Virus record (IMG/VR): IMGVR_UViG_3300037452_000118
Location: 32,001-96,000 of that record
From: a virus
DNA: 64,000 bases
Strand: one strand, 5' to 3'
The notes below the pieces were generated by a model that made no database searches, was not told the DNA's origin, and saw only the letters and a list, made by a program, of their open reading frames with translations. A program made the position numbers and the translations under genes. Below are positions 132 through 39,289 of the stretch, one piece after another; the stretch's first letter is position 1; the number at the start of each line of letters is the position of its first letter.

Positions 132-1052
132 ATGAGATTCCGCTTCACCCTCGTGGTCTGGGGCGATTGGCACATCGGCCAGTTCGTCAGGCACGGCCTG
201 CCCAGCCTGCGGGCGCCGGGCAACCTCGACGCGATCGACCACGTCGTTTCCGCGAAGACACGGCCGTCGGACCTGGAGCGCGTGCGCGCGGCGCTGGACG
301 GCGTCAACGCCGAGATCGAAGCGCTGCTTCCCGACGACATCGGCTCCGACCAGGCGACCTGCAACACGGCGGTCTTCACGCACAACGTCGACGACCGATC
401 CGCCGCCGCCCAGGCCGGGGAGGCCTGGGGACTGCTGTCGCCCGACATGGTGTGGGGCGAGGGAACGTGGGCGCACCACCGCGCCGCGCTGGAGGGCGGC
501 GCGAAGGCGGTCTTCCGCCCGCTGCTGCGCGTCGACTCCGAACGCGCCGGGACGATCCGCGATTTCCGCAGACGCAGCCTCGCCGCGACCGCCTTGGAGC
601 ACGAGCACGCGATCGCGCGGACGGACTACCGCGCCGGCGGGGAGAGGTTCTCGCCGCACGCCGAGATGATTATCTGGGAGGCGCCGGGTTGGCTGATCAA
701 CCGGACCATCACCGCTGAAGTCCAGACCTGCATCCCGGCTGCGGTGCCGTTCAACTCGCAGGGTTTGTCGGCGCTGCCGCTGGACGGCGAGATGTGCGTG
801 GTCCGCGACAGCGACGAGGCGATCGCGGTGGCGATGTGCCCGCCGGACAAGGACTTCGGCTGGCTGCAGGGGACGCGACCGCTCGATGTCGACCTTGTCC
901 GCGGTTTCCTGCGGTCCTACAACTCGCCGGCATCGAGGAACATCGCGCGCCAATCCTACCACCTGCATGCGGGCGACATCGTCGATGCCGAGATATGGAA
1001 AACGGTATTAGATCGTAGATCAGACGATTTCATCACGGAGGTCTTCGCGTGA
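132..1052 (+). CDS. Putative glycosyltransferase-like (GT-A-like) hypothetical protein
   Basis: ORF 102..1052; ATG at 132 follows AAGGGG. N-terminus FTLVVWG..LPSLRAPGNL and SPDMVW resemble nucleotide-sugar transferase-like proteins; similar to ORF 5724..6647. Confidence 0.45.
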   Translation: MRFRFTLVVWGDWHIGQFVRHGLPSLRAPGNLDAIDHVVSAKTRPSDLERVRAALDGVNAEIEALLPDDIGSDQATCNTAVFTHNVDDRSAAAQAGEAWGLLSPDMVWGEGTWAHHRAALEGGAKAVFRPLLRVDSERAGTIRDFRRRSLAATALEHEHAIARTDYRAGGERFSPHAEMIIWEAPGWLINRTITAEVQTCIPAAVPFNSQGLSALPLDGEMCVVRDSDEAIAVAMCPPDKDFGWLQGTRPLDVDLVRGFLRSYNSPASRNIARQSYHLHAGDIVDAEIWKTVLDRRSDDFITEVFA

Positions 1053-2167
1053 ACCTGCACCTCGCGTCAGACCTGCTCCTGGACAAGCATCTTCCGGAGC
1101 CGGAGCCTGTCCCCGACAAGGCGGCCTACCTCCGCGAGCGCGAGGCCTGCCTGGCGCTGTCGCCGGCGGCGCGCGAGAACTGGGAGCGCTACGAGCGCTC
1201 GACGAGGCGCGAGGCGGAGCTGGACTACCTGCCGGTCCGGCTCGACGTCGAGAACGTCAGCCGCTGCAATTTTCGTTGCACCATGTGCCAGGTCAGCGAC
1301 TGGCCGAAGGGCCAGCGCGCCGCCGACATGAGCCTCGACGACTTCAAGCGGCTGCTCGACGAGCAGGTCGGAGTCGTAGAGCTGAAAATCCAGGGCTTCG
1401 GCGAGCCGACGATGGGCGCCCACTATTTTGAAATGATCCAATACGCGAGGGCGCGGCGGATATGGGTGCGCACCATCACCAACGCCTCGCGGCTGCATTT
1501 GAGAAACACGTTTCAAAAGTTGGTCGATACCGACGTGAACGAAATCCAAATATCAATAGACGGCGCAACGAAGGAAGTCTTCGAGGGCATCCGGCGCGGC
1601 TCGGTGTTCGAGCAGGTCGTGAAGAATTGCGCGCTGATCAATGGCTATGCAAAAGCCCAGGGCAAGCTACGAACCAAAATGTGGACTGTCGTGCAACAAA
1701 CCAACGCGCACCAGCTCGACGACCTGGTCGACCTCGCCTACGACGCCGGCTTTGCGCATTTGGTTTTTTCATTTGAATTGATTGATTTTGGGCAGCCGAA
1801 ATGGAAGGAGACGAACGATGCCGCCTCGGTCGCGGATCGGATAAGCCTCGCGGAATGTTGGCGGCTGCACCATCGCGCCAAGGCGCTCGGCGTCCGATTG
1901 GGTTTTTGGTTTGCCAACGAACGCTATAGCTATGAGGCGGGCAACCCGGAAAAGCTATGCTCGTGGCCGTTTCAGTCTGCCTACATCTCGTCCGACATGA
2001 AAATCGTACCGTGCTGTATAATTGGAAACCCCGAAGTTAGCAATTTCGGCGATGCCCGCAAGCTCACTGAACTTTGGAATGGCCCCGCCATCAAGGCTTT
2101 CCGTGAGGGTCATTTGACGGGGTGTGTTCCGGATATTTGCAGGTCCTGTTATAAGGGGAATCGCTGA
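1049..2167 (+). CDS. Radical SAM protein with C-terminal SPASM/twitch domain
   Basis: CNFRCTMC (CxxxCxxC), GFGEP, ISIDG motifs; C-terminal CSWPF..VPCC..CRSC. Confidence 0.92.
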   Translation: MNLHLASDLLLDKHLPEPEPVPDKAAYLREREACLALSPAARENWERYERSTRREAELDYLPVRLDVENVSRCNFRCTMCQVSDWPKGQRAADMSLDDFKRLLDEQVGVVELKIQGFGEPTMGAHYFEMIQYARARRIWVRTITNASRLHLRNTFQKLVDTDVNEIQISIDGATKEVFEGIRRGSVFEQVVKNCALINGYAKAQGKLRTKMWTVVQQTNAHQLDDLVDLAYDAGFAHLVFSFELIDFGQPKWKETNDAASVADRISLAECWRLHHRAKALGVRLGFWFANERYSYEAGNPEKLCSWPFQSAYISSDMKIVPCCIIGNPEVSNFGDARKLTELWNGPAIKAFREGHLTGCVPDICRSCYKGNR

Positions 2168-2177
2168 ATCAACTCTA

Positions 2178-2216
2178 TTGACTTATAATTATCGCGTGGT
2201 GTAGGAATGGTTCCTA
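2178..2216 (+). promoter_or_regulatory. Putative sigma70-type promoter with palindromic operator
   Basis: TTGACT at 2178; AT-rich spacer; inverted repeat TAGGAA-tgg-TTCCTA (2202-2216) over the -10 region, ending at the RHH start codon. Confidence 0.5.
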
Positions 2217-2368
2217 TGAGAACCACGCACAAGCAGACGATTACCTTCACGAAACCAGAGATCGACTACCTGCGGATCGAGGCTAAACGCCTCGGCATAT
2301 CCGTGGCCGATCTTGTGCGGCGGATCATAGATCAGCACCAAGAGAGCCAAAGGAAAGCAGCAAAATGA
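2216..2368 (+). CDS. Ribbon-helix-helix (CopG-like) regulator, 50 aa
   Basis: Hand translation MRTTHKQTITFTKPEIDYLRIEAKRLGISVADLVRRIIDQH...; beta-strand then GISVADLVRR helix pattern; ATGA overlap with the next gene. Absent from the ORF track because it is short. Confidence 0.8.
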   Translation: MRTTHKQTITFTKPEIDYLRIEAKRLGISVADLVRRIIDQHQESQRKAAK

Positions 2369-3177
2369 ACAAACCAATCCAAGCCGAAGAGGCCGTTACC
2401 GTTGCCGAGATACAGATGACCGAGATGAGCTTCAACATCGTCGGGACATCCCCTCTCGTGATCCATGCTATGAGCGCGAAGAGCAAAGGCTCTCTGCTCT
2501 TTCCATCTCCGCGCAAGAATGCGACGGAGCGAGCGACGACGATGAAGCACGAACCATATGAGGAGTTTCTCGGCGCTTGCTATCGCTTCAGGGACGCCGA
2601 CAAATCGCCGACCCGGCTCTATATGCCGGCCGGAGCTTTTCATGCCGCGATGGCCAACTCCGCGATTGATATGGTCGGCGCTAAGAAAGCGCAGATCGGG
2701 CGCTTGACTACGGTACCCGGCGGCAAGATTCCAATCTTCGGTGTGCCGCAACTCTGGATGACCACCGTCAGGTCGAGCGACATGGCGCGAACACCGGACA
2801 TTCGCACGCTGCCGATCCTGCCGTCATGGTGCGCCACGATCACGGTGCAGTTCGTCGGTAGCCTGATCAAGCAGCAGTCGATCGCCAATCTGCTCGCTGC
2901 CGCTGGCGTCATCATTGGTATCGGTGACGGGCGCCCAGAGAAGGGCAAATTGTCGATGGGCCAGTTTCGCCTTTGCTCCGACGATGATCTAGAGTTTTTG
3001 CGGATCGTGAAGCAAGGCGTAACCGCGCAGGATAAGGCGCTTGCCGACCCGGCGACTTTCGACGAGGAAACTGCAGAACTTTGGGATTGGTTCACAAAAG
3101 AAAAAACCAAACGGGCGGCGGCTCCGGCGTCAATACCGAAGCGCCCCCCCCAAGGCAGAGCATGCAGCGCGAGCTAA
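2365..3177 (+). CDS. Stand-alone Cas7/RAMP-like protein, candidate effector of the adjacent pentamer arrays
   Basis: RAMP-like motifs: N-terminal strand IVGTSPLVIH, LYMPAGAFHAAM (like the YIPGSSLKGA motif), W-x-x-T-I-T-V strand and Gly-rich loop GIGDGRPEKGK..GQF. No cas1/2/3/10 in the window. Confidence 0.75.
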   Translation: MNKPIQAEEAVTVAEIQMTEMSFNIVGTSPLVIHAMSAKSKGSLLFPSPRKNATERATTMKHEPYEEFLGACYRFRDADKSPTRLYMPAGAFHAAMANSAIDMVGAKKAQIGRLTTVPGGKIPIFGVPQLWMTTVRSSDMARTPDIRTLPILPSWCATITVQFVGSLIKQQSIANLLAAAGVIIGIGDGRPEKGKLSMGQFRLCSDDDLEFLRIVKQGVTAQDKALADPATFDEETAELWDWFTKEKTKRAAAPASIPKRPPQGRACSAS

Positions 3178-3188
3178 CGGCTCTTGAA

Positions 3189-4060
3189 ATCCAGTCCAGT
3201 TGGGACACGATAGCCCAGTCATATCTCGATGTGACGAGATACGACTAGATGCGACCGGGACCAACAAGACTTGATCGGTCAAGATGCGAACAGTCTTGAT
3301 GCGACGGGACCGGATATGATCCGATGAGCCGTGACTGGACCAACGCGACTAGACCGGACGCGACGCGATACGATCTGGCTAGATACGATGAGACCAATGC
3401 GATGCGTTTGGCCGAGTTCGGACGCGACATGATCCGCCGTGATGCGCTTTGCCAAGACGCGACCAACATGATGAGCCGTGACCAGCCACGATCAGACCCG
3501 ACGGGCCGGAGCGCGACTTGCTCAGACCAACAAGACCTGCCGAGCCGCGATCGGCCGCGCTGCGATACGATTGGACAGGACGTGTTTTGTCCAACATGAC
3601 CCGACTAGCGATGACGAGCGGTGCCGGGCCATGACGAGACCAACAAGCCAAGTCTGGACGTGCTCGGACGGAATATGATCGGACTGGACAAGACCAACAC
3701 GACAAGACTGGAGACGACGTGCGGAGCCGGGACCGGCCGCGACAACGCTGGACCTGACCAACGGGCCTAGAAGGGACCGGATTAGCAATGCCGTGGCGAG
3801 ACGGGACCGACAAGTCACGATCAGCCAAGTCCCGAGGAGCCAACGCGAGATCGGACATGCCAAGACCAACGAGGTTTGCTCAGATGAGCGAAGCCGCGAC
3901 GTGATCGGCCAAGACGTGACCAACGTGACTGGCTATGCCGAGATTGGCCCGGACCAGATGCCTTGGGACGAGACTTGAAATGCCGAGACCAACGAGCCGC
4001 GATGTGACCTGACGCGCTATGCCGCGATCAGTAGCGATGAGATGGGATAAGTTGCCAACC
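3189..4060 (+). repeat. Pentamer-periodic array 1, (G-led triplet + NN)n units separated by GACCAAC; candidate guide-RNA array
   Basis: Delimiters at 3259, 3338, 3392, 3461, 3525, 3589, 3638, 3692, 3756, 3805, 3864, 3918, 3987 (variants GACCAAT, GTCCAAC, GACCGAC). Spacings 79,54,69,64,64,49,54,64,49,59,54,69 are all 5n+4. Triplets are mostly GAC/GAT/GCC/GTC. Confidence 0.93.
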
Positions 4061-4076
4061 AAAGAGGAGGTTAAAA

Positions 4077-4571
4077 ATGTCGACCATGAAAATCCGCGCT
4101 GCGGCGATCAAAGCGATCGAGGATGAAGCCGGCAGAGTGACGGCGGAAGCGCTGGTATTGGCGGCGCGCGATCAAACCCATCCGCTGCACAAGGAGTTTC
4201 CCTGGGACGACAAAAAGGCGGCGCACCAGCATCGCCTCGATGTCGCCCGCCGTATAATCGCCAGCGTAAGGGTAACCATCACAACTACAACCAAGAAGGT
4301 AACCTGCGTTGGCTATGTCAGGGATCCTGAAGCCGGGCTACGACAGGGCTACGTCAGCACCGTCAAGCTGCGTACTGAGGCCGATGCTGCGCGGGAAGCC
4401 CTCGGCGCGGAGATCGCCAGGGTACAGAGCATTTTGGAAAGAGCGAAGGAACTCGCTGCAGGCCTCGAGCTTGACGAGGATTTTCAATTGTCTCTCGCCG
4501 GCGCCTTGGATTTTTCCAGCCGGATGCGAAAAGGACTCGGTTTTCCAGGAGATGGAAGAGCCTTGCAATAA
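4077..4571 (+). CDS. Phage hypothetical protein embedded between the two arrays (partner of the RAMP gene)
   Basis: Strong SD AGAGGAGG; motif TAEALVLAAR..HPLHKEFPWDD..AA..HRL..ARRII. Confidence 0.8.
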   Translation: MSTMKIRAAAIKAIEDEAGRVTAEALVLAARDQTHPLHKEFPWDDKKAAHQHRLDVARRIIASVRVTITTTTKKVTCVGYVRDPEAGLRQGYVSTVKLRTEADAAREALGAEIARVQSILERAKELAAGLELDEDFQLSLAGALDFSSRMRKGLGFPGDGRALQ

Positions 4572-4577
4572 AGCCTA

Positions 4578-4711
4578 AACGTACTGTGCCGTGTCACGTT
4601 ACGACATGATCGGACACGATCTGACGAGACCAACGCGACCTGACTCGTCTTGTTGCGGTGAGGCATGACATGATGCGATTTGTCGCGATCCGACTAGCCG
4701 CAGCAAGATGA
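4578..4711 (+). repeat. Pentamer-periodic array 2 (two units)
   Basis: aac gt/act gt/gcc gt/gtc ac/gtt ac/gac at/gat cg/gac ac/gat ct/gac ga, GACCAAC at 4628, then 15 further pentamers. Confidence 0.88.
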
Positions 4712-4725
4712 TCAAAGGGAAGCTA

Positions 4726-5727
4726 ATGATACTCTCTGTCGGGGAATACGATGCCCTTGAGCAGGAAGCTCGCTGCGGTCTTTCTTTTTGCGAGCTCATG
4801 GCCTTCGCGCCGCGCACTTTCGACATGCTCGGCTTCCCGCATCGCGTCGAGGATGAGCGGGAGCTCGTCCGCTACGCCGATTGGAATCGGGACACCGGAA
4901 ATCAAGAATACTTTCGGCCCGGCCATTTCTTCGGCGGCCCGGCCGTGCAGACCGACTTCACCGCCGATGAGGTCGAGATGATGAATCGCGTCCGCGACCA
5001 GGCCGTCGCGGCGACCACCAAGCTCGGCCGGCCGGTGCGGCCGCTGTGCAGTCCCTTCGCGCAGCTCGGCCTGTTTCGCATCTTGGCCGCCATCGGATTG
5101 CCTGGGCTCCGCGTCTTCGAGGTCGGCCCCGGTACCGCCTATCTCGGCGCCATGCTCATCAACGAAGGCGCGAGCTATTATTCTTTCACCGACAACGCCC
5201 AGGCGCTTTTCCTTTGGCAATGTCGCTTGATGGCCGAGGTCGGGTATCAACCGACGTCGCGCGCTGGGCTTCCGTGGTGGGACTTCGCCCGCGGCGTCAA
5301 CCTTCTTCCGGTCGATGTCGTGGTCTCCAACACCAACCTCGGCGAGATGACCGGCGACGCGCTCAAGATCACGGCGCACCGCGCGCGGCAGATGCTGGAG
5401 AGATCGCCGCTTGGTCTCTTCCTGTTCGTCAACGTCGGGGCGCCGATGTACAATTCGGAGGAGGGCGTCGACCGCGAGCTGCGCCGTGCCGGCTTCAGCC
5501 TCGTCGTCAACCGCTTTTTCCGCGCCTACCGGGCGCCCAACTCCGAGCCGCTCCCGGAGGCGGCGCTGGCCTTGGAGTTCGGCATGCCGCTCTATAATCC
5601 AAGCGGCAGGCCTGGCACGGTGTCCGGTGGCGAGGCCGTGTACATCCCCGACGACCAGCGCCCGCTCGACCTCGACGTTACGGAGCTGCTGGAGGGGTGG
5701 CGCCCGCCGGTGAGGAGCAAGCCATGA
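4726..5727 (+). CDS. SAM-dependent methyltransferase (putative sugar O-methyltransferase-like)
   Basis: Motif I VFEVGPGTAYLG, acidic FTD at strand 2, later DVVVSNTNLGEM. ATG 4726 preferred because 4708 lies inside array 2. Confidence 0.75.
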   Translation: MILSVGEYDALEQEARCGLSFCELMAFAPRTFDMLGFPHRVEDERELVRYADWNRDTGNQEYFRPGHFFGGPAVQTDFTADEVEMMNRVRDQAVAATTKLGRPVRPLCSPFAQLGLFRILAAIGLPGLRVFEVGPGTAYLGAMLINEGASYYSFTDNAQALFLWQCRLMAEVGYQPTSRAGLPWWDFARGVNLLPVDVVVSNTNLGEMTGDALKITAHRARQMLERSPLGLFLFVNVGAPMYNSEEGVDRELRRAGFSLVVNRFFRAYRAPNSEPLPEAALALEFGMPLYNPSGRPGTVSGGEAVYIPDDQRPLDLDVTELLEGWRPPVRSKP

Positions 5728-35800: not shown

Positions 35801-35875
35801 GCTGGCATAGCTCAGATGTAGAGCAGCTCCCCTGTAAGGAGACGCGCGGAGACTCAAGCCCTCCTGTCAGCACCA
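35801..35875 (+). tRNA. tRNA-Thr(TGT)
   Basis: Cloverleaf, CCA end, atypical T-loop. Confidence 0.8.
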
Positions 35876-35878
35876 TTC

Positions 35879-35953
35879 GGCCCCTGAAGCATTGTGACGA
35901 TGCAGCCGCCCCGTAAGCGGCAGAGCCGTGTTTGATTCACGGCTGGGGCTCCA
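35879..35953 (+). tRNA. tRNA-Thr(CGT)
   Basis: CCGC-CCCGTAA-GCGG; CCA. Confidence 0.72.
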
Positions 35954-35954
35954 T

Positions 35955-36030
35955 GCTCTCTTAGCTCATTTGGTAGAGCACCGAGTTGGTATCTCGGAGG
36001 CGGGTGGATCGAAGCCACCAGGGAGCACCA
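35955..36030 (+). tRNA. tRNA-Thr(GGT)
   Basis: CCGAG-TTGGTAT-CTCGG; CCA. Confidence 0.88.
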
Positions 36031-36035
36031 TTTTC

Positions 36036-36112
36036 GGCCTCGTAGTCCAACTGGCAGAGACGACGCCCTCAGAAGGCGTGCGTTGGGAGTTCGAATCTCC
36101 CCGAGGCTACCA
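36036..36112 (+). tRNA. tRNA-Leu(CAG)
   Basis: ACGCC-CTCAGAA-GGCGT; short variable loop. Confidence 0.85.
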
Positions 36113-36116
36113 ATTC

Positions 36117-36193
36117 GCTCGCGTATGCAAATCGGTAAAGCAGCGAAGCTCAAACCTTCGTGTTTGGAGATTCGAGTTCTCCCGCGAGCACCA
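36117..36193 (+). tRNA. tRNA-Leu(CAA)
   Basis: CGAAG-CTCAAAC-CTTCG; short variable loop. Confidence 0.82.
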
Positions 36194-36194
36194 T

Positions 36195-36271
36195 GCCGCA
36201 GTAGCCCAATTGGCAGAGGCATCCGGCTTAAACCCGGTTCAGTGCGGGATCGTGGCCCGCTTGCGGCACCA
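36195..36271 (+). tRNA. tRNA-Leu(TAA)
   Basis: CCGG-CTTAAAC-CCGG; short variable loop. Confidence 0.82.
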
Positions 36272-36277
36272 TTTCAC

Positions 36278-36349
36278 GGGCGCTTAGCTCAGAGGAAGAG
36301 CGTCGCGTTTACACCGCGAAGGTCGAGATATCATAATTCTCAGCGCCTA
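36278..36349 (+). tRNA. tRNA-Val(TAC)
   Basis: TCGCG-TTTACAC-CGCGA; no encoded CCA. Confidence 0.8.
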
Positions 36350-36350
36350 C

Positions 36351-36425
36351 GGGCTGTTAGTTCAGCGGCAGAATGCTTGCTCGACACGCAAGAGGTCCGG
36401 TGTTCGATTCACCGACAGCCCACCA
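36351..36425 (+). tRNA. tRNA-Val(GAC)
   Basis: CTTGC-TCGACAC-GCAAG; CCA. Confidence 0.85.
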
Positions 36426-36429
36426 TCAT

Positions 36430-36503
36430 GGTCCTGTATCTCAGTGGCAGAGAACGCGGCCGATAACCGTGAGACGCGGGTTCGATTCCCGACGGGACTA
36501 CCA
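36430..36503 (+). tRNA. tRNA-Ile(GAT)
   Basis: CGCGG-CCGATAA-CCGTG; CCA. Confidence 0.85.
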
Positions 36504-36550
36504 ACGAAAGGAACTAGGAAAATGCTCTATCCGCTCAAACGCGGGTCTGC

Positions 36551-36625
36551 GGACCCGTGGTGTAATAGGTAGCACACGAGACTTTTAATCTTGGAGCCAG
36601 AGTTCAAATCTCTGCGGGTCTACCA
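36551..36625 (+). tRNA. tRNA-Lys(TTT)
   Basis: CGAGA-CTTTTAA-TCTTG; CCA. Confidence 0.85.
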
Positions 36626-36631
36626 AATAAC

Positions 36632-36707
36632 GGACGACTAGCTCAATTGGCAGAGCATCCGCCTCTTAAGCGGCAGGTTCGGGGATCGTGGCCCCGGTCG
36701 TCCTCCA
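36632..36707 (+). tRNA. tRNA-Lys(CTT)
   Basis: CCGC-CTCTTAA-GCGG; CCA. Confidence 0.85.
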
Positions 36708-36708
36708 T

Positions 36709-36784
36709 GTGCCAGTACCCCAACGGTAGAGGGATCGCCCTGAGAAGGCGTTCAGTGGGCGTTCGAATCGCCCTTGGCACACCA
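36709..36784 (+). tRNA. tRNA-Leu(GAG)
   Basis: CGCC-CTGAGAA-GGCG; short variable loop. Confidence 0.8.
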
Positions 36785-36785
36785 T

Positions 36786-36859
36786 GCGGCTATAGCTCAA
36801 AGGCAGAGCGTTCGGTTGTCAACCGAGGGACCGGGGATCAATACCCCGTAGCCGCGCCA
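36786..36859 (+). tRNA. tRNA-Asp(GTC)
   Basis: TTCGG-TTGTCAA-CCGAG; GCCA end. Confidence 0.85.
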
Positions 36860-36865
36860 ATTCAA

Positions 36866-36942
36866 CAGGGTGTAGCTCAGTCTGGTAGAGCACTTGCTTC
36901 GGAAGCAAGGGGCCGCAGGATCGAAGCCTGCCACCCTGACCA
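36866..36942 (+). tRNA. tRNA-Pro(CGG)
   Basis: CTTGC-TTCGGAA-GCAAG; CCA. Confidence 0.9.
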
Positions 36943-36946
36943 ATTC

Positions 36947-37021
36947 GGCCGTCTAGCTTAACGGCAGAGCCCGCGCCTCATAAGCGCAGTGATGCGAGTT
37001 CGACTCTCGCGGCGGCTACCA
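36947..37021 (+). tRNA. tRNA with CAT anticodon (Met or Ile2)
   Basis: GCGC-CTCATAA-GCGC; CCA. Confidence 0.8.
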
Positions 37022-37031
37022 GGAGGCGGCC

Positions 37032-37358
37032 ATGCGCTGCATCGTCAAATACGAGCATCCGAAAAGATTGCTCCGCGTCTACGTGCACGGCGCGCCTCAT
37101 CGGCGCGTCCATCGCGAAGTGCTCAAACGCTACCGCGAGGAATTGTGGAAGGCGGCGCAGGCTGCGGGCATCACGGCGGCGATGACCCATCAAATAACTT
37201 TGTCGGCGACGTTCATCGACCCGACGGGACCGGACTTGGACAACCTCATCACGGCGCTGTTTCAGGCGCTGGACGGCAAATGCGGGAAAGGTCCGACGAT
37301 CTTGAAAGACGACAAACAGATCGTCTACATCGAAAAAACTGGGATCATCTTCCCTTAG
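37032..37358 (+). CDS. RusA-like Holliday junction resolvase/endonuclease inside the tRNA array
   Basis: PDLDNLITALFQALDG..LKDDKQIV; SD AGGAGG. Confidence 0.7.
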   Translation: MRCIVKYEHPKRLLRVYVHGAPHRRVHREVLKRYREELWKAAQAAGITAAMTHQITLSATFIDPTGPDLDNLITALFQALDGKCGKGPTILKDDKQIVYIEKTGIIFP

Positions 37359-37425
37359 CTCATTTGGACAGAGCACCCGGTTCCGAACCGGGAGGTACGG
37401 TGTTCGAATCACCGAGGGAAGGCCA
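37349..37425 (+). tRNA. tRNA-Arg(CCG)
   Basis: CCCGG-TTCCGAA-CCGGG; overlaps the RusA-like stop codon. Confidence 0.88.
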
Positions 37426-37429
37426 ACAT

Positions 37430-37514
37430 GGATGGTTTGCCGGCGGCCCGGCGGCGAGTTTTGAAAACTCGTAGCACCGAAAGGTGTGGCGATCGACACG
37501 TCAACCATCCGCCA
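37430..37514 (+). tRNA. tRNA-Ser(TGA)
   Basis: CGAGT-TTTGAAA-ACTCG; long variable arm. Confidence 0.8.
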
Positions 37515-37518
37515 ATAC

Positions 37519-37604
37519 GGAAGGCTAACCGAACAGGGTTCGGCGTCGCCTGGAAAGCGCACGGCTCGGCAACGAGTGGAGATCGTGTCTTCAGCCTTCC
37601 GCCA
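37519..37604 (+). tRNA. tRNA-Ser(GGA)
   Basis: CGC-CTGGAAA-GCG; long variable arm; GCCA. Confidence 0.75.
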
Positions 37605-37608
37605 TTAC

Positions 37609-37698
37609 GGAAAGTCAACGCGGCGAGTGCCGCGCGCCCGTTCGAAGCGGGATGGAACGCGCATAGCGTTTGGGGATCAAGACCTCGGCTTTCCGCCA
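37609..37698 (+). tRNA. tRNA-Ser(CGA)
   Basis: CCCG-TTCGAAG-CGGG; long variable arm; GCCA. Confidence 0.75.
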
Positions 37699-37702
37699 TT
37701 GA

Positions 37703-37776
37703 CGCGCGATGGAGGAGGAGTTCCTTGCTAGGCTCATAACCTGGAGACGTCGGTGCAAGTCCGGCTCGCGCAACCA
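37703..37776 (+). tRNA. Initiator-like tRNA-fMet(CAT)
   Basis: C1:A72 mismatch; CTAGG-CTCATAA-CCTGG. Confidence 0.78.
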
Positions 37777-37781
37777 ACTAA

Positions 37782-37868
37782 GGGCAAGTATGCAAGAGGC
37801 CAAAGCAGCGGCGCTGTAAACGCCGTCCCGAAAGGGTTCGCAGGTTCGAATCCGTGCCTTGCCCACCA
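37782..37868 (+). tRNA. tRNA-Tyr(GTA)
   Basis: CGGCG-CTGTAAA-CGCCG; long variable arm. Confidence 0.88.
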
Positions 37869-37869
37869 T

Positions 37870-37943
37870 GCGGACAAAGGATTACGGCAGTCTCCCTCGT
37901 TGCCAACGAGGTGGCGGGAGTTCGACTCTCCCTGTCCGTACCA
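37870..37943 (+). tRNA. tRNA-Gly(GCC)
   Basis: CCTCG-TTGCCAA-CGAGG. Confidence 0.82.
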
Positions 37944-37945
37944 AC

Positions 37946-38021
37946 GCCCACTAAGCTAATCTGGTGAAAGCGTCTGCCTGAAGAGCAGAAGAGCGTGGCT
38001 CGAAACCACGAGTGGGCACCA
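37946..38021 (+). tRNA. tRNA-Phe(GAA)
   Basis: TCTGC-CTGAAGA-GCAGA. Confidence 0.85.
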
Positions 38022-38025
38022 ATCT

Positions 38026-38097
38026 GGGCCGGGCGTCGGGACGCAGTGATGCCTTGCAAGCAACGCGTTGGGAGTTCAACTCTCCCTCGGTCCACCA
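38026..38097 (+). tRNA. tRNA-Ala(TGC)
   Basis: TGC-CTTGCAA-GCA; G3:U70 pair; reduced D-arm. Confidence 0.72.
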
Positions 38098-38104
38098 ATT
38101 TTAT

Positions 38105-38178
38105 TCCCCTCTCGTTCAACGGTAGGACACCTGACTGTTAATCAGAGAATTGTGGTTCGATTCCACGGAGGGGAGCCA
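38105..38178 (+). tRNA. tRNA-Asn(GTT)
   Basis: CTGA-CTGTTAA-TCAG; GCCA. Confidence 0.9.
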
Positions 38179-38181
38179 ATT

Positions 38182-38256
38182 GCCGCCATCGTCTAGTGGC
38201 TAGGATATTTGGTTCTCAACCAAATGAAGCGGGGTCGGAACCCGCTGGCGGCTCCA
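38182..38256 (+). tRNA. tRNA-Glu(CTC)
   Basis: TTTGG-TTCTCAA-CCAAA. Confidence 0.85.
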
Positions 38257-38262
38257 TTTTAC

Positions 38263-38339
38263 GGTGGGCGTAGCTCAATCGGTAGAGCACCAGATTGTGA
38301 ATCTGGTGGCCACGGGTTCGATCCCCGTCGCTCACCCCA
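38263..38339 (+). tRNA. tRNA-His(GTG)
   Basis: G-1, CCAGA-TTGTGAA-TCTGG, CCCA end. Confidence 0.92.
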
Positions 38340-38340
38340 A

Positions 38341-38417
38341 GGTCCCATAGCTCAACTGGACAGAGTGCCAGATTACGAATCTGGGAGATCGGGGTTCGAA
38401 TCCTCGTGGGATCGCCA
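38341..38417 (+). tRNA. tRNA-Arg(ACG)
   Basis: CCAGA-TTACGAA-TCTGG. Confidence 0.92.
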
Positions 38418-38422
38418 TTTAA

Positions 38423-38499
38423 CAGGGAGTGGGAAAGTCTGGTAATCCGCTTGCCTTGGAAGCAAGAGATCGCGGGATCGAAGCCCGCCTCCCTGACCA
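38423..38499 (+). tRNA. tRNA-Pro(TGG)
   Basis: CTTGC-CTTGGAA-GCAAG. Confidence 0.85.
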
Positions 38500-38502
38500 A
38501 TT

Positions 38503-38576
38503 GCCCCTTTCGCTCAATGGTAGGGCGCTGCGCTCTGAACGCAGATACGGTGGTTCGATTCCATCAAGGGGTGCCA
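38503..38576 (+). tRNA. tRNA-Gln(CTG)
   Basis: CTGCG-CTCTGAA-CGCAG. Confidence 0.88.
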
Positions 38577-38580
38577 TGAT

Positions 38581-38655
38581 GTTGCAGTGCCGAGAGTGGC
38601 TATCGGCCGGTCTGCAAAACCGAGAACGCGAGTTCGATCCTCGCCTGCAACTCCA
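38581..38655 (+). tRNA. tRNA-Cys(GCA)
   Basis: CGGT-CTGCAAA-ACCG; TCCA end. Confidence 0.85.
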
Positions 38656-38659
38656 TCTT

Positions 38660-38735
38660 GCGCTCGTAGCTCAGTGGACAGAGCGGCCGGTTTCTACCCG
38701 GTTGGTCCGGGGTTCGAATCCTCGCGAGCGCGCCA
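38660..38735 (+). tRNA. tRNA-Arg(TCT)
   Basis: GCCGG-TTTCTAC-CCGGT. Confidence 0.9.
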
Positions 38736-38736
38736 C

Positions 38737-38813
38737 GGTCACGTAGCTCAATTGGACAGAGCCGCAGTTTCCTAAACTGCCGTGTGGGGGTTCGAGTCCT
38801 CCCGTGATCGCCA
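38737..38813 (+). tRNA. tRNA-Arg(CCT)
   Basis: GCAGT-TTCCTAA-ACTGC. Confidence 0.9.
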
Positions 38814-38818
38814 TTTTT

Positions 38819-38902
38819 GGAGAGTTAATTCGGCAGGGACCGAACGCGGTTTGCTAAACCGTTGGTGCCGCAAGGCATGGGAATCGTGCTCTCAACTCTC
38901 CG
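38819..38902 (+). tRNA. tRNA-Ser(GCT)
   Basis: GCGGT-TTGCTAA-ACCGT; long variable arm. Confidence 0.8.
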
Positions 38903-38903
38903 C

Positions 38904-38977
38904 GCGGGTATGGTATATAGGCTGTGCCCAAGGCTTCCAACCTTGTGAACGGAGTTCGAGTCTCCGTGCCCGCACCA
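38904..38977 (+). tRNA. tRNA-Gly(TCC)
   Basis: CAAGG-CTTCCAA-CCTTG. Confidence 0.88.
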
Positions 38978-38983
38978 AATAAC

Positions 38984-39058
38984 GGCCCCTTAGTTTACTG
39001 GCTAGAATCTCCGGCCTTCACCCGGAAGGAAGCGGATCGAAACCGCTAGGGGCTGCCA
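38984..39058 (+). tRNA. tRNA-Glu(TTC)
   Basis: TCCGG-CCTTCAC-CCGGA. Confidence 0.8.
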
Positions 39059-39062
39059 AAAT

Positions 39063-39136
39063 AGCCGGTTCGTTCAACGGTAGGACGTGGGACTTTGAAT
39101 CCCACTATGAGGGTTCGATTCCTTCACCGGCTGCCA
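39063..39136 (+). tRNA. tRNA-Gln(TTG)
   Basis: TGGGA-CTTTGAA-TCCCA. Confidence 0.9.
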
Positions 39137-39137
39137 T

Positions 39138-39211
39138 GGCGGCAGAGCGCTGGGTCTCAGCGGTTCCTCATAAGGACCGTGTGCGCGGATCGTCACCGCG
39201 GGCCGCTACCA
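39138..39211 (+). tRNA. tRNA-Met(CAT), atypical
   Basis: GGTTC-CTCATAA-GGACC; degenerate D and T arms; CCA. Confidence 0.65.
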
Positions 39212-39214
39212 AAT

Positions 39215-39289
39215 ACGGGTGTAAGATAACGGTAGTCGGCAGGTCTCCAAAACCTTGCAGTCCGGGTTCAAATCCTGGCACCCGTGCCA
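39215..39289 (+). tRNA. tRNA-Trp(CCA)
   Basis: AGGT-CTCCAAA-ACCT; GCCA. Confidence 0.88.

What the first reader, a model, noticed from the sequence alone, without database searches (positions are those of the whole stretch)
3259..3337. Array unit decodes to a gapped match with the 3' end of the upstream radical SAM gene
Seen: the NN of this unit's 14 pentamers read tt cg aa gc ca tt gc gg cg at cc ga gt tg. Codon positions 1-2 of 2099-2140 (FREGHLTGCVPDIC) read tt cg ga gg ca tt ac gg tg gt cc ga at tg. Eight of 14 dinucleotides are identical and the other six differ by one base (22/28 nt). Read as codons the guide can spell F-R-K-A-H-L-A-G-R-I-P-D-V-C, a plausible homologue of the same segment. 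Inference: the code is NN-x-NN-x, it skips the wobble base so synonymous changes do not escape it, and the true target is a related phage's allele rather than self.
Basis: partly seen in the sequence, partly recalled or inferred. Interest (0 to 1): 0.95.

Follow-up and report, generated by a model that had tools for sequence, protein, structure and literature searches.

The report
VIPR guide RNA targeting rival alleles
This 79-base repeat unit is one guide RNA of a phage VIPR system, a CRISPR-like DNA silencer first published in 2026, and its two-letter code spells the end of the neighbouring gene as related phages carry it rather than the phage's own altered copy.

Summary
The 14 variable dinucleotides of unit 3259-3337 match codon positions 1-2 of 2099-2140 at 22/28. 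This is the single best site in the 128.8-kb contig (next best 18). Only 4 of 4000 order-shuffles reach 22.

The locus (RHH gene, Cas7-like gene 2365-3177, array, accessory gene 4077-4571, second array) is a VIPR system (bioRxiv 10.64898/2026.04.26.720920). In VIPR, the NN of pentamer repeats read DNA with a one-base skip at the codon wobble position. The array here is of the "staggered" kind and uses G-A/C-Y in place of GGY.

Of 16 homologues of the radical SAM gene, 2 must match the guide better than self (23-26 of 28) and 11 may. The phage's own copy carries residues unique in the family (G, C) at guide-read codons.

The last unit (4637) does the same on the other flank. It spells LSFAEIMAFAP, as 7 of 27 homologues have, while self has LSFCELMAFAP.

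This is a new member of a known kind. This scan has already noted VIPR in at least 16 other genomes. No nucleotide sequence of the better-matching alleles could be fetched.

The parts
1049..2167 (+). Radical SAM / SPASM gene upstream of the cassette. Its last 23 codons hold the near-target of guide 1.
   Evidence: Pfam Radical_SAM 1.1e-15 and SPASM 1e-08. 16 homologues aligned.
2099..2140 (+). Near-target site of guide 1 (FREGHLTGCVPDIC). It matches at 22/28, in codon phase, with skip base = wobble.
   Evidence: G at codon 4 and C at codon 9 occur in 0 of 16 homologues.
2207..2368 (+). Small ribbon-helix-helix-like regulator gene at the head of the cassette.
   Evidence: ORF. Only weak NikA-like (E 0.0034) and phrog_876 repressor (E 0.031) matches. 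The assignment is tentative.
2365..3177 (+). vipr: a stand-alone Cas7-like RAMP protein of 270 aa with G-loop GIGDGRPEKG.
   Evidence: No Pfam match; phrog_4652 at 3.9e-16. AlphaFold model pLDDT 74.3. The top Foldseek and VIA-align hits listed are Csm3/Cmr4/Cas7-11-type RAMPs (E 3.7e-4; Z 8.6, rmsd 3.7, 153 aligned). hhalign to the SUSP1 locus protein gives prob 88.9%, E 2.4e-6.
3213..4052 (+). vrRNA array 1: about 12 staggered units of 8-14 pentamers (G, A/C, Y, N, N). Units are separated by a one-base phase slip inside GACC[A]AC.
   Evidence: Information per position is 1.74, 0.53, 0.68, 0.11 and 0.00 bits over 141 pentamers. The array is unique in the contig.
3259..3337 (+). The finding: first clean unit (guide 1), made of a junction 9-mer plus 14 pentamers.
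4077..4571 (+). vap: accessory gene of 164 aa, with an N-terminal winged-helix-like domain (weak evidence) and a C-terminal helical hairpin.
   Evidence: phrog_15946 at 4.8e-16. tblastn relatives found in 81 loci that also hold a vipr relative. Model pLDDT 90.5. Best Foldseek rows are FoxO/PadR DNA-binding domains at E 0.16-0.6, none at or below 0.001.
4588..4711 (+). vrRNA array 2: two units. The last one (pentamers from 4637) is guide 13.
4780..4824 (+). Near-target site of guide 13 in ORF 4708-5727 (LSFCELMAFAPRTFD). It scores 22/30, or 19/22 over the first 11 pentamers, in codon phase.
4708..5727 (+). Downstream gene of unknown function (no Pfam family). Its first 40 codons hold the near-target of guide 13.
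   Evidence: 27 homologues aligned.

Best explanation
The unit is one vrRNA (guide RNA) of a phage VIPR system.

Inferred from the published mechanism, not shown here:
- The + strand arrays are transcribed and cut into units at the one-base-overlap junctions.
- One Vipr protomer (gene 2365-3177) binds each pentamer and buries the G-A/C-Y triplet.
- The NN dinucleotides are presented to pair with double-stranded DNA, skipping every third target base.
- The filament then blocks transcription.

Shown here:
- The anatomy of the locus.
- The RAMP fold of the protein and its homology to the SUSP1 locus protein.
- Conservation of protein plus array across many phage loci.
- The in-phase 22/28 match and its rarity.
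- Homologous alleles fit the guide better than the phage's own allele, on both flanks of the cassette.

My reading: guides 1 and 13 are aimed at the radical SAM gene and at the gene downstream as rival relatives carry them. The resident copies escape through non-synonymous changes at guide-read codons. The cassette lies between its two resistant alleles, so recombination rarely separates the weapon from its antidote.
For: Protein. The top Foldseek and VIA-align hits listed are Cas7-type RAMPs. The family profile aligns with the 194-aa protein that lies between the GGT-NN arrays of Escherichia phage SUSP1. The alignment covers the strand plus G-loop, with prob 88.9% and E 2.4e-6.

Array. The pentamers have a conserved G and Y and near-random NN. 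Units hold 8-15 pentamers, against 9-16 in the paper. The one-base-overlap junctions fit the 'staggered arrays' of the Fig. S18 legend.

Conservation. 327 of 394 candidate stretches in IMG/VR encode relatives, and 80 loci were kept. 75 of 81 sources, the window included, hold runs of 8 or more pentamers on the gene's strand. These are mostly GGC-NN, with some GAC, GCC, GGT and GGA.

Match statistics.

Alleles. One DNA-level check was possible. In L117, a radical SAM gene 49% identical to the window's, the best hit of guide 1 is the homologous site at 21/28, with 17 as the next best.

Same pattern elsewhere. In L016 and L025, two guides match the adjacent terminase large-subunit gene in frame at 17/20. 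Synonymous differences between the two loci leave that score unchanged.

Literature. The 1-nt skip, wobble alignment, kin and VIPR targets, and self scores lower than non-self scores are all reported.
Against: - No RNA evidence: no listed sequencing run that holds this DNA is on record as RNA.
- No nucleotide sequence of the better-fitting alleles was obtained, so 23-26/28 is a range inferred from protein sequences.
- Exact-pattern scans of IMG/VR found nothing for guide 1 or for the first 11 dinucleotides of guide 13.
- The triplet is G-A/C-Y, not GGY. The tryptophan that stacks on the second G in SUSP1 Vipr aligns with a glycine here. Binding of this scaffold is therefore assumed, not known.
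- Eleven of 13 units have no identified target.
- Across 395 units of other loci, period-3 self-locus hits (9 at p<=0.01, two of them the window's) are not clearly more frequent than the period-4 control (6). Flank-directed guides are not shown to be general.
- The first 11 pentamers of guide 13 match self at 19/22 = 86%, above the papers' 80% line.
Confidence: 0.8

Rival explanations
1. Self-regulation. The imperfect matches are functional. The VIPR complex binds the phage's own radical SAM 3' end and the 5' end of ORF 4708 weakly. This tunes read-through into the cassette and expression of the downstream gene cluster.
For: Both sites lie within about 30-75 bases of the cassette ends. The first 11 pentamers of guide 13 match self at 86%, above the papers' 80% threshold.
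Against: Homologous alleles fit better than self on both flanks. The self mismatches sit at residues unique in the family. The papers found no self hit at 80% or more, and found self scores lower than non-self scores. Guide 1 matches self at 78.6%.
Confidence: 0.1
2. Relic. The two terminal guides were derived from the phage's own ancestral flanking sequence, or both have since drifted. They have no present target.
For: No perfect target was found in IMG/VR. The last four pentamers of unit 4637 do not match and their triplets are degenerate.
Against: The triplet scaffold of guide 1 is intact: 14 of 14 pentamers start with G. The guide spells common family residues, not random ones. Drift would not be expected to place the self differences at residues unique in the family.
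Confidence: 0.06
3. The repeats are only a protein-binding scaffold RNA or DNA, like the triplet repeats bound by TRAP or a centromere-like array. The NN are meaningless spacers and the match is chance.
For: NN positions carry almost no information (0.11 and 0.00 bits). 11 of 13 units have no hit. This was my first idea on seeing the 5-base period.
Against: 4 of 4000 shuffles reach 22 anywhere in the contig, and the hit is in frame, same-sense and adjacent. A second unit behaves likewise on the other flank. Alleles fit better than self. In L117 the guide's best hit is the homologous site. The published experiments show that NN dictate specificity.
Confidence: 0.03

Closest known systems
VIPR systems with staggered vrRNA arrays (bioRxiv 10.64898/2026.04.26.720920; main Results and the Fig. 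S18 legend read, supplementary figures not visible)
   Same: - A stand-alone small RAMP gene plus one accessory gene.
- Flanking arrays of pentamer repeats with a conserved triplet and a hypervariable NN.
- Units that abut with a one-base overlap and have no structured tail.
- Phage-borne.
- NN read with a one-base skip that falls on codon wobble positions.
- Self match below 80%.
   Different: - The triplet is G-A/C-Y (GAC 47, GAT 33, GCC 25 of 141 pentamers), not GGY.
- I could not see Fig. S17 or the data files. I therefore cannot say which of the seven types this is, or whether this consensus is among the 'related' ones (NNNGG, YNNNG, NNNNG).
- The protein is 270 aa, against about 20 kDa for the published one.
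Type II VIPR of Escherichia phage SUSP1 (NC_028808; locus read)
   Same: Homologous RAMP core and G-loop with the G-D-x-R-P motif. The guide arrays lie on the same strand as the gene. The function is inter-phage conflict.
   Different: - SUSP1 vrRNAs are GGT/GGC-NN repeats, each capped by a conserved hairpin or pseudoknot tail. No such tail exists here.
- The SUSP1 accessory protein shows no profile similarity to the window's Vap (hhalign prob 0.1%).
- The tryptophan of the SUSP1 G-loop aligns with a glycine here.
vrRNAs aimed at relatives' own loci, with self score lower than non-self score (bioRxiv 10.64898/2026.10.15.759431; abstract and the section on solo vrRNAs read)
   Same: The guides target close kin, and autoimmunity is avoided by lower self-match scores.
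   Different: The published cases are solo vrRNAs in VIPR-null Enterobacteriaceae phages that target vipr genes, vrRNAs or satellites. Here a complete cassette in a soil phage carries terminal guides that spell the two genes bracketing the cassette.
Class 1 CRISPR-Cas effector backbones (Cas7/Csm3/Cmr4)
   Same: The fold matches. Per the papers, one protomer binds per repeat and the guide-target pairing is periodically interrupted.
   Different: - There is no repeat-spacer array, only a 7-base junction motif.
- No CRISPR RNA family was found among the Rfam gathering-level hits, which were 28 tRNAs only.
- The period is 5 bases with only 2 read, not 6 with 5 read.
- I did not search the contig for cas1/cas2.

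Membership tests
VIPR system | Vipr protein: a small stand-alone RAMP with RRM core, glycine-rich loop and thumb | tested here: met
   Model pLDDT 74.3. Foldseek top rows are Csm3, Cmr and Cas7-11 chains (best E 3.7e-4). VIA-align gives Z 8.6 (rmsd 3.7, 153 aligned), 8.1 and 7.5, and nearly every one of the 50 listed rows is a CRISPR RAMP. The invariant G-loop is G185, G187, D188, G189, P191 and G194.
VIPR system | Homology to an experimentally studied Vipr | tested here: met
   hhalign of the 17-sequence family profile against the 194-aa protein between the SUSP1 arrays gives prob 88.9%, E 2.4e-6 over 51 columns. That this SUSP1 gene is the published Vipr is my inference. It rests on its position between the arrays, its size, and the D-W-R G-loop residues named in the structure paper.
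VIPR system | vrRNA made of tandem pentamers with a conserved triplet and a hypervariable NN, 9-16 repeats | tested here: met
   13 units of 8-15 pentamers. Position information is 1.74, 0.53, 0.68, 0.11 and 0.00 bits. The triplet consensus G-A/C-Y differs from GGY.
VIPR system | Arrays linked to vipr across relatives | tested here: met
   75 of 81 sources hold runs of 8 or more pentamers. The dominant triplet is GGC in most loci, and the arrays lie on the vipr strand beside the gene.
VIPR system | NN read the target with a 1-nt skip that falls on the wobble base | tested here: met
   Only period 3 gives an outlier for this unit; periods 2, 4 and 6 do not. The hit is in codon phase. Alleles fit at 82-93% by protein-derived range.
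VIPR system | No self target at 80% NN match or more | tested here: inconclusive
   Guide 1 matches self at 78.6%. Guide 13 matches at 73% over 15 pentamers but at 86% over its first 11. The true 3' end of that guide is unknown.
VIPR system | vap accessory gene with a DNA-interacting fold | tested here: inconclusive
   A conserved partner gene is present (81 loci). The Foldseek rows are forkhead/PadR winged-helix domains only at E 0.16-0.6. The VIA rows cover only the C-terminal helical hairpin. There is no similarity to the SUSP1 partner.
VIPR system | vrRNA is expressed, processed and co-purifies with Vipr; the complex binds DNA | not testable with these tools
   No RNA run was listed among the holders. 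This needs bench work.
Type II VIPR (SUSP1 clade) | Each vrRNA ends in an invariant structured 3' tail (pseudoknot) | tested here: not met
   Units abut through a 7-base junction motif with no intervening conserved hairpin. Compare the SUSP1 tails.
CRISPR-Cas | Repeat-spacer array of 20-40-base direct repeats | tested here: not met
   Tandem Repeats Finder and direct reading show only 5-base periodic units and a 7-base junction motif. Rfam gathering hits in the window are 28 tRNAs and no CRISPR repeat family.
TRAP-type triplet-repeat RNA (recalled from memory) | A fixed number of triplet repeats matching a ring of fixed size | tested here: not met
   Unit length varies from 8 to 15 pentamers here and from 8 to 32 across 429 runs.

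The most novel reading that the evidence does not exclude
The VIPR cassette and the two altered gene ends that bracket it form one co-inherited selfish module. The first guide of array 1 and the last guide of array 2 silence the un-altered alleles of both neighbouring genes in rival kin. The resident resistant alleles sit within 30-75 bases of the cassette ends. Any recombinant that takes the cassette without them would target itself, and any rival that loses to it can be rescued only by importing the whole block. That would make VIPR cassettes behave like a guide-RNA-based poison-antidote or homing-like drive among related phages. The G-A/C-Y scaffold would show that the protein's triplet pocket can be retuned.
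Probability: 0.3. Interest if true: 0.65.

Novelty: new member of a known kind. Interest (0 to 1): 0.42.

Why it matters
The method therefore worked, but the kind of system is no longer new.

This locus adds three points.

- It is a soil-phage VIPR of the staggered-array kind that uses G-A/C-Y in place of GGY. This bears on how the protein pocket recognises the scaffold: the stacking tryptophan of SUSP1 aligns with a glycine in this family.
- Guides on both ends of a complete cassette spell the two flanking genes as relatives carry them, while the resident copies carry family-unique residues at the read codons. This gives a concrete, testable case of a guide linked to its resistant allele.
- A second locus pair (L016/L025) has guides against conserved terminase motifs. 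There, synonymous differences leave the match unchanged, which illustrates why skipping the wobble base pays.

Tried and rejected
- TRAP-like, CsrA-sponge, primase-site, rut-site, origin-iteron or centromere readings of the 5-base repeat. I considered these on first sight and dropped them because of the variable unit length, the RAMP fold and the literature.
- Coding potential. Only short ORFs on both strands lie in 3180-4060.
- Rfam. There is no family over the arrays.
- Sigma-70 promoter scan of 2050-4850. It found 0 sites and 3 weak terminator-like sites, none informative.
- tblastn against GenBank phages. The window's Vipr, Vap and radical SAM proteins gave no match. A more typical family member (L096) gave only distant Gordonia and Mycobacterium phage hits.
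- Radical SAM relatives in IMG/VR. Only one turned up, at 49% identity.
- The metagenome scan gave three short loci.
- Exact-pattern scans of IMG/VR for guide 1 and for 11 dinucleotides of guide 13 gave 0 hits.
- All-against-all scan of 543 guides against about 1.3 Mb of fetched loci plus the contig, at 85% or more. It gave 51 hits at period 3 against 41 at period 4, mostly 8-10-pentamer guides. This is chance level apart from the L016/L025 terminase hits.
- Self-locus scan of 395 units. It gave 9 hits (period 3) against 6 (period 4) at p<=0.01.
- Sequencing runs. Six soil-metagenome holders were listed and none is an RNA holder.
- Laying contigs of four runs at 80% likeness gave only short pieces. 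None covers 1805-2126, and no contig joins the radical SAM gene to ORF 4708 across the cassette. One low-depth joint (3211 to 4617, 16 other letters between, shorter side 23 bases) is probably array-to-array likeness.
- Whether relatives lack the cassette could not be settled. The contig lengths tied to the radical SAM and ORF 4708 homologues (121209, 22387, 73322, 6428) do not appear among the 120 Vipr homologues listed of 606. This is only a hint.
- The supplementary figures and data files of the three preprints were not visible. They may already list this clade, its type and the G-A-Y consensus.
Full report
WHAT IS THERE

The window is bases 32001-96000 of a single 128,813-base viral contig. 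It carries 28 tRNA genes further on.

A 2.5-kb cassette lies between a radical SAM/SPASM gene (1049-2167) and an ORF of unknown function (4708-5727). Its parts are:
- a small RHH-like gene (2207-2368);
- a 270-aa gene (2365-3177);
- a non-coding array (about 3213-4052);
- a 164-aa gene (4077-4571);
- a second short array (about 4588-4711).

The arrays are built of pentamers. Over 141 pentamers in register, position 1 is G in 136, position 2 is A in 85 or C in 37, and position 3 is C or T in 131. Positions 4-5 are nearly random, at 0.11 and 0.00 bits.

Runs of 8-15 pentamers are separated by the motif GACCAAC. Read in register, this motif is two pentamers overlapping by one base, which gives a -1 phase slip. 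In GGC-type relatives the junction is GGCA[G]GC. The array is unique in the contig.

THE OBSERVATION

They match codon positions 1-2 of 2099-2140 at 22/28, with 8 dinucleotides identical and 6 differing by one base. The site is in frame.

- A period-3 scan of both strands finds no other site above 18 in the window or in the whole contig.
- Order-shuffled guides reach 22 in 1 of 3000 trials over the window.
- They reach 22 in 4 of 4000 trials over the contig.
- The same unit read at periods 2, 4 and 6 gives nothing unusual.

Scanning all 13 units without prior choice, one other unit stands out at period 3. Unit 4637, the last of array 2, scores 22/30 at 4780. This is in frame with ORF 4708 and about 75 bases beyond the end of the array. 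Shuffles match it in 67 of 4000 trials for all 15 pentamers. For the first 11 pentamers, which score 19/22, shuffles match it in 11 of 4000 trials. The other 11 units have no outlier.

WHAT IT IS

The 270-aa protein has no Pfam family and matches only phrog_4652, of unknown function.
- Its AlphaFold model (pLDDT 74.3) finds Cas7-type RAMPs in its top hits. Foldseek's best hits are Csm3 chains at E 3.7e-4.
- VIA-align gives Z 8.6 (rmsd 3.7, 153 aligned), 8.1 and 7.5 for Cmr, Csm and Csm3 chains. Nearly every one of the 50 listed rows is a CRISPR RAMP.
- It has 606 relatives at E<=0.001 among the 8000 candidates scored in the protein collection.
- 327 of 394 candidate stretches in IMG/VR encode relatives, and 31 loci were found in bacterial and MAG contigs.
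- 75 of 81 sources hold pentamer runs on the same strand beside the gene. These are mostly GGC-NN, with GAC (L001-L004), GCC (L005), GGT (L048) and GGA (L031, L058) variants. L081-L083 are also of the GAC type.
- The 164-aa partner gene has tblastn relatives in 81 of the loci.

A literature search then showed that this is a published kind, the VIPR system. I read the following:
- bioRxiv 10.64898/2026.04.26.720920: Results, Discussion and three Methods sections;
- bioRxiv 10.64898/2026.04.26.720927: abstract and two Results sections;
- bioRxiv 10.64898/2026.10.15.759431: abstract and one Results section.

They report the following:
- Vipr is a stand-alone RAMP.
- vrRNAs consist of 9-16 GGY/NN pentamers.
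- One protomer binds per repeat, burying GGY and presenting NN.
- dsDNA is read with a one-base skip that mostly falls on codon wobble positions.
- There is no PAM, and either strand can be targeted.
- The outcome is transcriptional silencing.
- Natural targets are rival phages, satellites and other VIPR systems.
- A match of 80% or more counts as a target, and no self hit reaches that level.
- There are seven types, some with 'related' repeat consensus.
- In 'staggered arrays', neighbouring vrRNAs overlap by one nucleotide.

As a direct link, I read the SUSP1 record and found its GGT/GGC-NN units with hairpin tails beside a 194-aa gene. The window's family profile aligns with that protein over the last strand and the G-loop (prob 88.9%, E 2.4e-6). 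The accessory proteins are unrelated. The window's Vap model (pLDDT 90.5) gives only weak winged-helix rows, with best E 0.16.

Sixteen homologues of the radical SAM protein, 50-86% identical to it, were aligned. Each aligned 14-residue segment was converted into the range of NN matches its residues allow.

| Allele | Segment | Residues compatible with the guide | NN match |
|---|---|---|---|
| Self | FREGHLTGCVPDIC | 8/14 | 22/28 (actual) |
| P0123 | FREDHLAGRIPEVC | 12/14 | 23-26 |
| P0131 | FRKAHLEGRIPAVC | 12/14 | 23-26 |
| Eight others | - | 11/14 | 21-25 |
| P0129, P0133, P0136 | - | 8-9/14 | 17-21 (worse than self) |

P0134 and P0137 reach at most 22, the same as self. So 2 of 16 must exceed self, 11 of 16 may exceed it, and 3 cannot reach it.

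At the six codons where self mismatches, the guide-encoded residue occurs in 1, 9, 3, 8, 10 and 13 of the 16 homologues. The self residues G (codon 4) and C (codon 9) occur in none.

One DNA-level allele was available, L117 at 49% identity. There the guide's best hit in 15 kb is the homologous site at 21/28, with 17 as the next best.

On the other flank, 27 homologues of ORF 4708 were aligned.
- The first 11 dinucleotides of guide 13 spell LS[FL]A[DE][IM][IM]A[FL]AP.
- Seven of the 27 homologues read LSFAEIMAFAP, which is 11/11 compatible and allows 19-22 of 22.
- Self reads LSFCELMAFAP, which is 9/11 compatible and scores 19/22.
- The self C occurs in 0 of 27 homologues.
- The last four pentamers of the unit match nothing.

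By the tables, P0123, P0152 and the 95%-identical Vipr P0001 share a longest-contig length of 104,239. The nearest relative therefore probably carries both a VIPR cassette and alleles that this phage's guides would hit. I could not fetch its DNA.

HOW GENERAL

In L016 and L025 the cassette lies just upstream of a terminase large-subunit gene. One guide in each locus matches that gene in frame at 17/20, at the motifs DEFHEHDSDH and TEKQSHEIFR, in both loci. Synonymous differences between the two loci leave the score unchanged. In its own locus, 0 of 300 shuffles matched each hit.

Over 395 units, however, period-3 self-locus hits at p<=0.01 number 9 (two of them the window's) against 6 for the period-4 control. 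An all-against-all scan is at chance level, with 51 hits against 41. Flank-directed guides are therefore an occasional feature, not a rule.

MECHANISM AND WHAT IS INFERRED

Shown here: the anatomy, the fold, the homology, the conservation, the rarity and phase of the match, and the better fit of non-self alleles.

Taken from the papers and not tested on this locus: transcription and processing of the array, filament formation, gapped pairing and silencing.

My inference is as follows. Guides 1 and 13 target the flanking genes of rival kin. The resident alleles escaped by non-synonymous change, since a wobble change cannot help. The tight linkage of cassette and resistant alleles keeps the cassette from being inherited without its protection. 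Earlier follow-ups of this scan reached a similar 'weapon linked to antidote' reading for solo guides in other genomes. I had formed the idea before reading them, so they are not independent proof.

WEAK POINTS

- The scaffold is G-A/C-Y, and the tryptophan that stacks on the second G in SUSP1 Vipr aligns with a glycine in this family.
- The true ends of the guides are unknown.
- The first 11 pentamers of guide 13 match self at 86%.
- Eleven guides have no target.
- No RNA data exist.

VERDICT

This is a new member of a known, very recently published kind, and this scan has already met that kind in at least 16 other genomes.

Noticed in passing
window 35801-39286: A block of 28 tRNA genes on the + strand, which fits a large phage genome.
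   Followed up: no
window 1350-2400 and 4500-4800: G+C falls from about 0.65-0.72 to 0.49-0.57 across the 3' two-thirds of the radical SAM gene, the cassette and the first ~100 bases of ORF 4708. The C-terminal 143 residues of the radical SAM protein are also less like their relatives than the whole protein is (76% against 86% for P0122). The block that moved may be larger than the cassette.
   Followed up: partly
L016 7668-7717 and 8175-8405; L025 2252-2301 and 2766-2996: Two VIPR guides match conserved motifs of the adjacent terminase large-subunit gene in frame at 17/20, in both loci. Synonymous differences between the loci do not change the score.
   Followed up: partly
L083 1680-1824: After a + strand GAC-NN array, the sequence continues as the reverse complement of such an array (GTC-led units, including the reversed junction motif). 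The two arrays are therefore convergent or inverted.
   Followed up: no
L116 4155-6592 (Gordonia phage Ecliptus): A distant vipr relative (gp19) with two HTH genes and a GGC-NN array in the 262-base gap after it. The block is inserted between the tail assembly chaperone and tape measure genes, and all genes are annotated hypothetical. In Gordonia phage UmaThurman the relative (gp39) sits just after the repressor and excise genes.
   Followed up: partly
L005 2592-4700: A relative with 22 runs of GCC-led pentamers, the longest array seen among the fetched loci.
   Followed up: no
window 3211 / 4617: One low-depth soil-metagenome contig joins 3211 to 4617 with 16 other letters between. It may be a relative with a shorter array and no vap gene, or mere array-to-array likeness.
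   Followed up: no
window 2365-3177, residues 185-194: The G-loop reads G-I-G-D-G-R-P. The D and R align with the SUSP1 residues said to contact G1 and Y3, but the tryptophan said to stack on G2 aligns with an invariant glycine in this family.
   Followed up: partly
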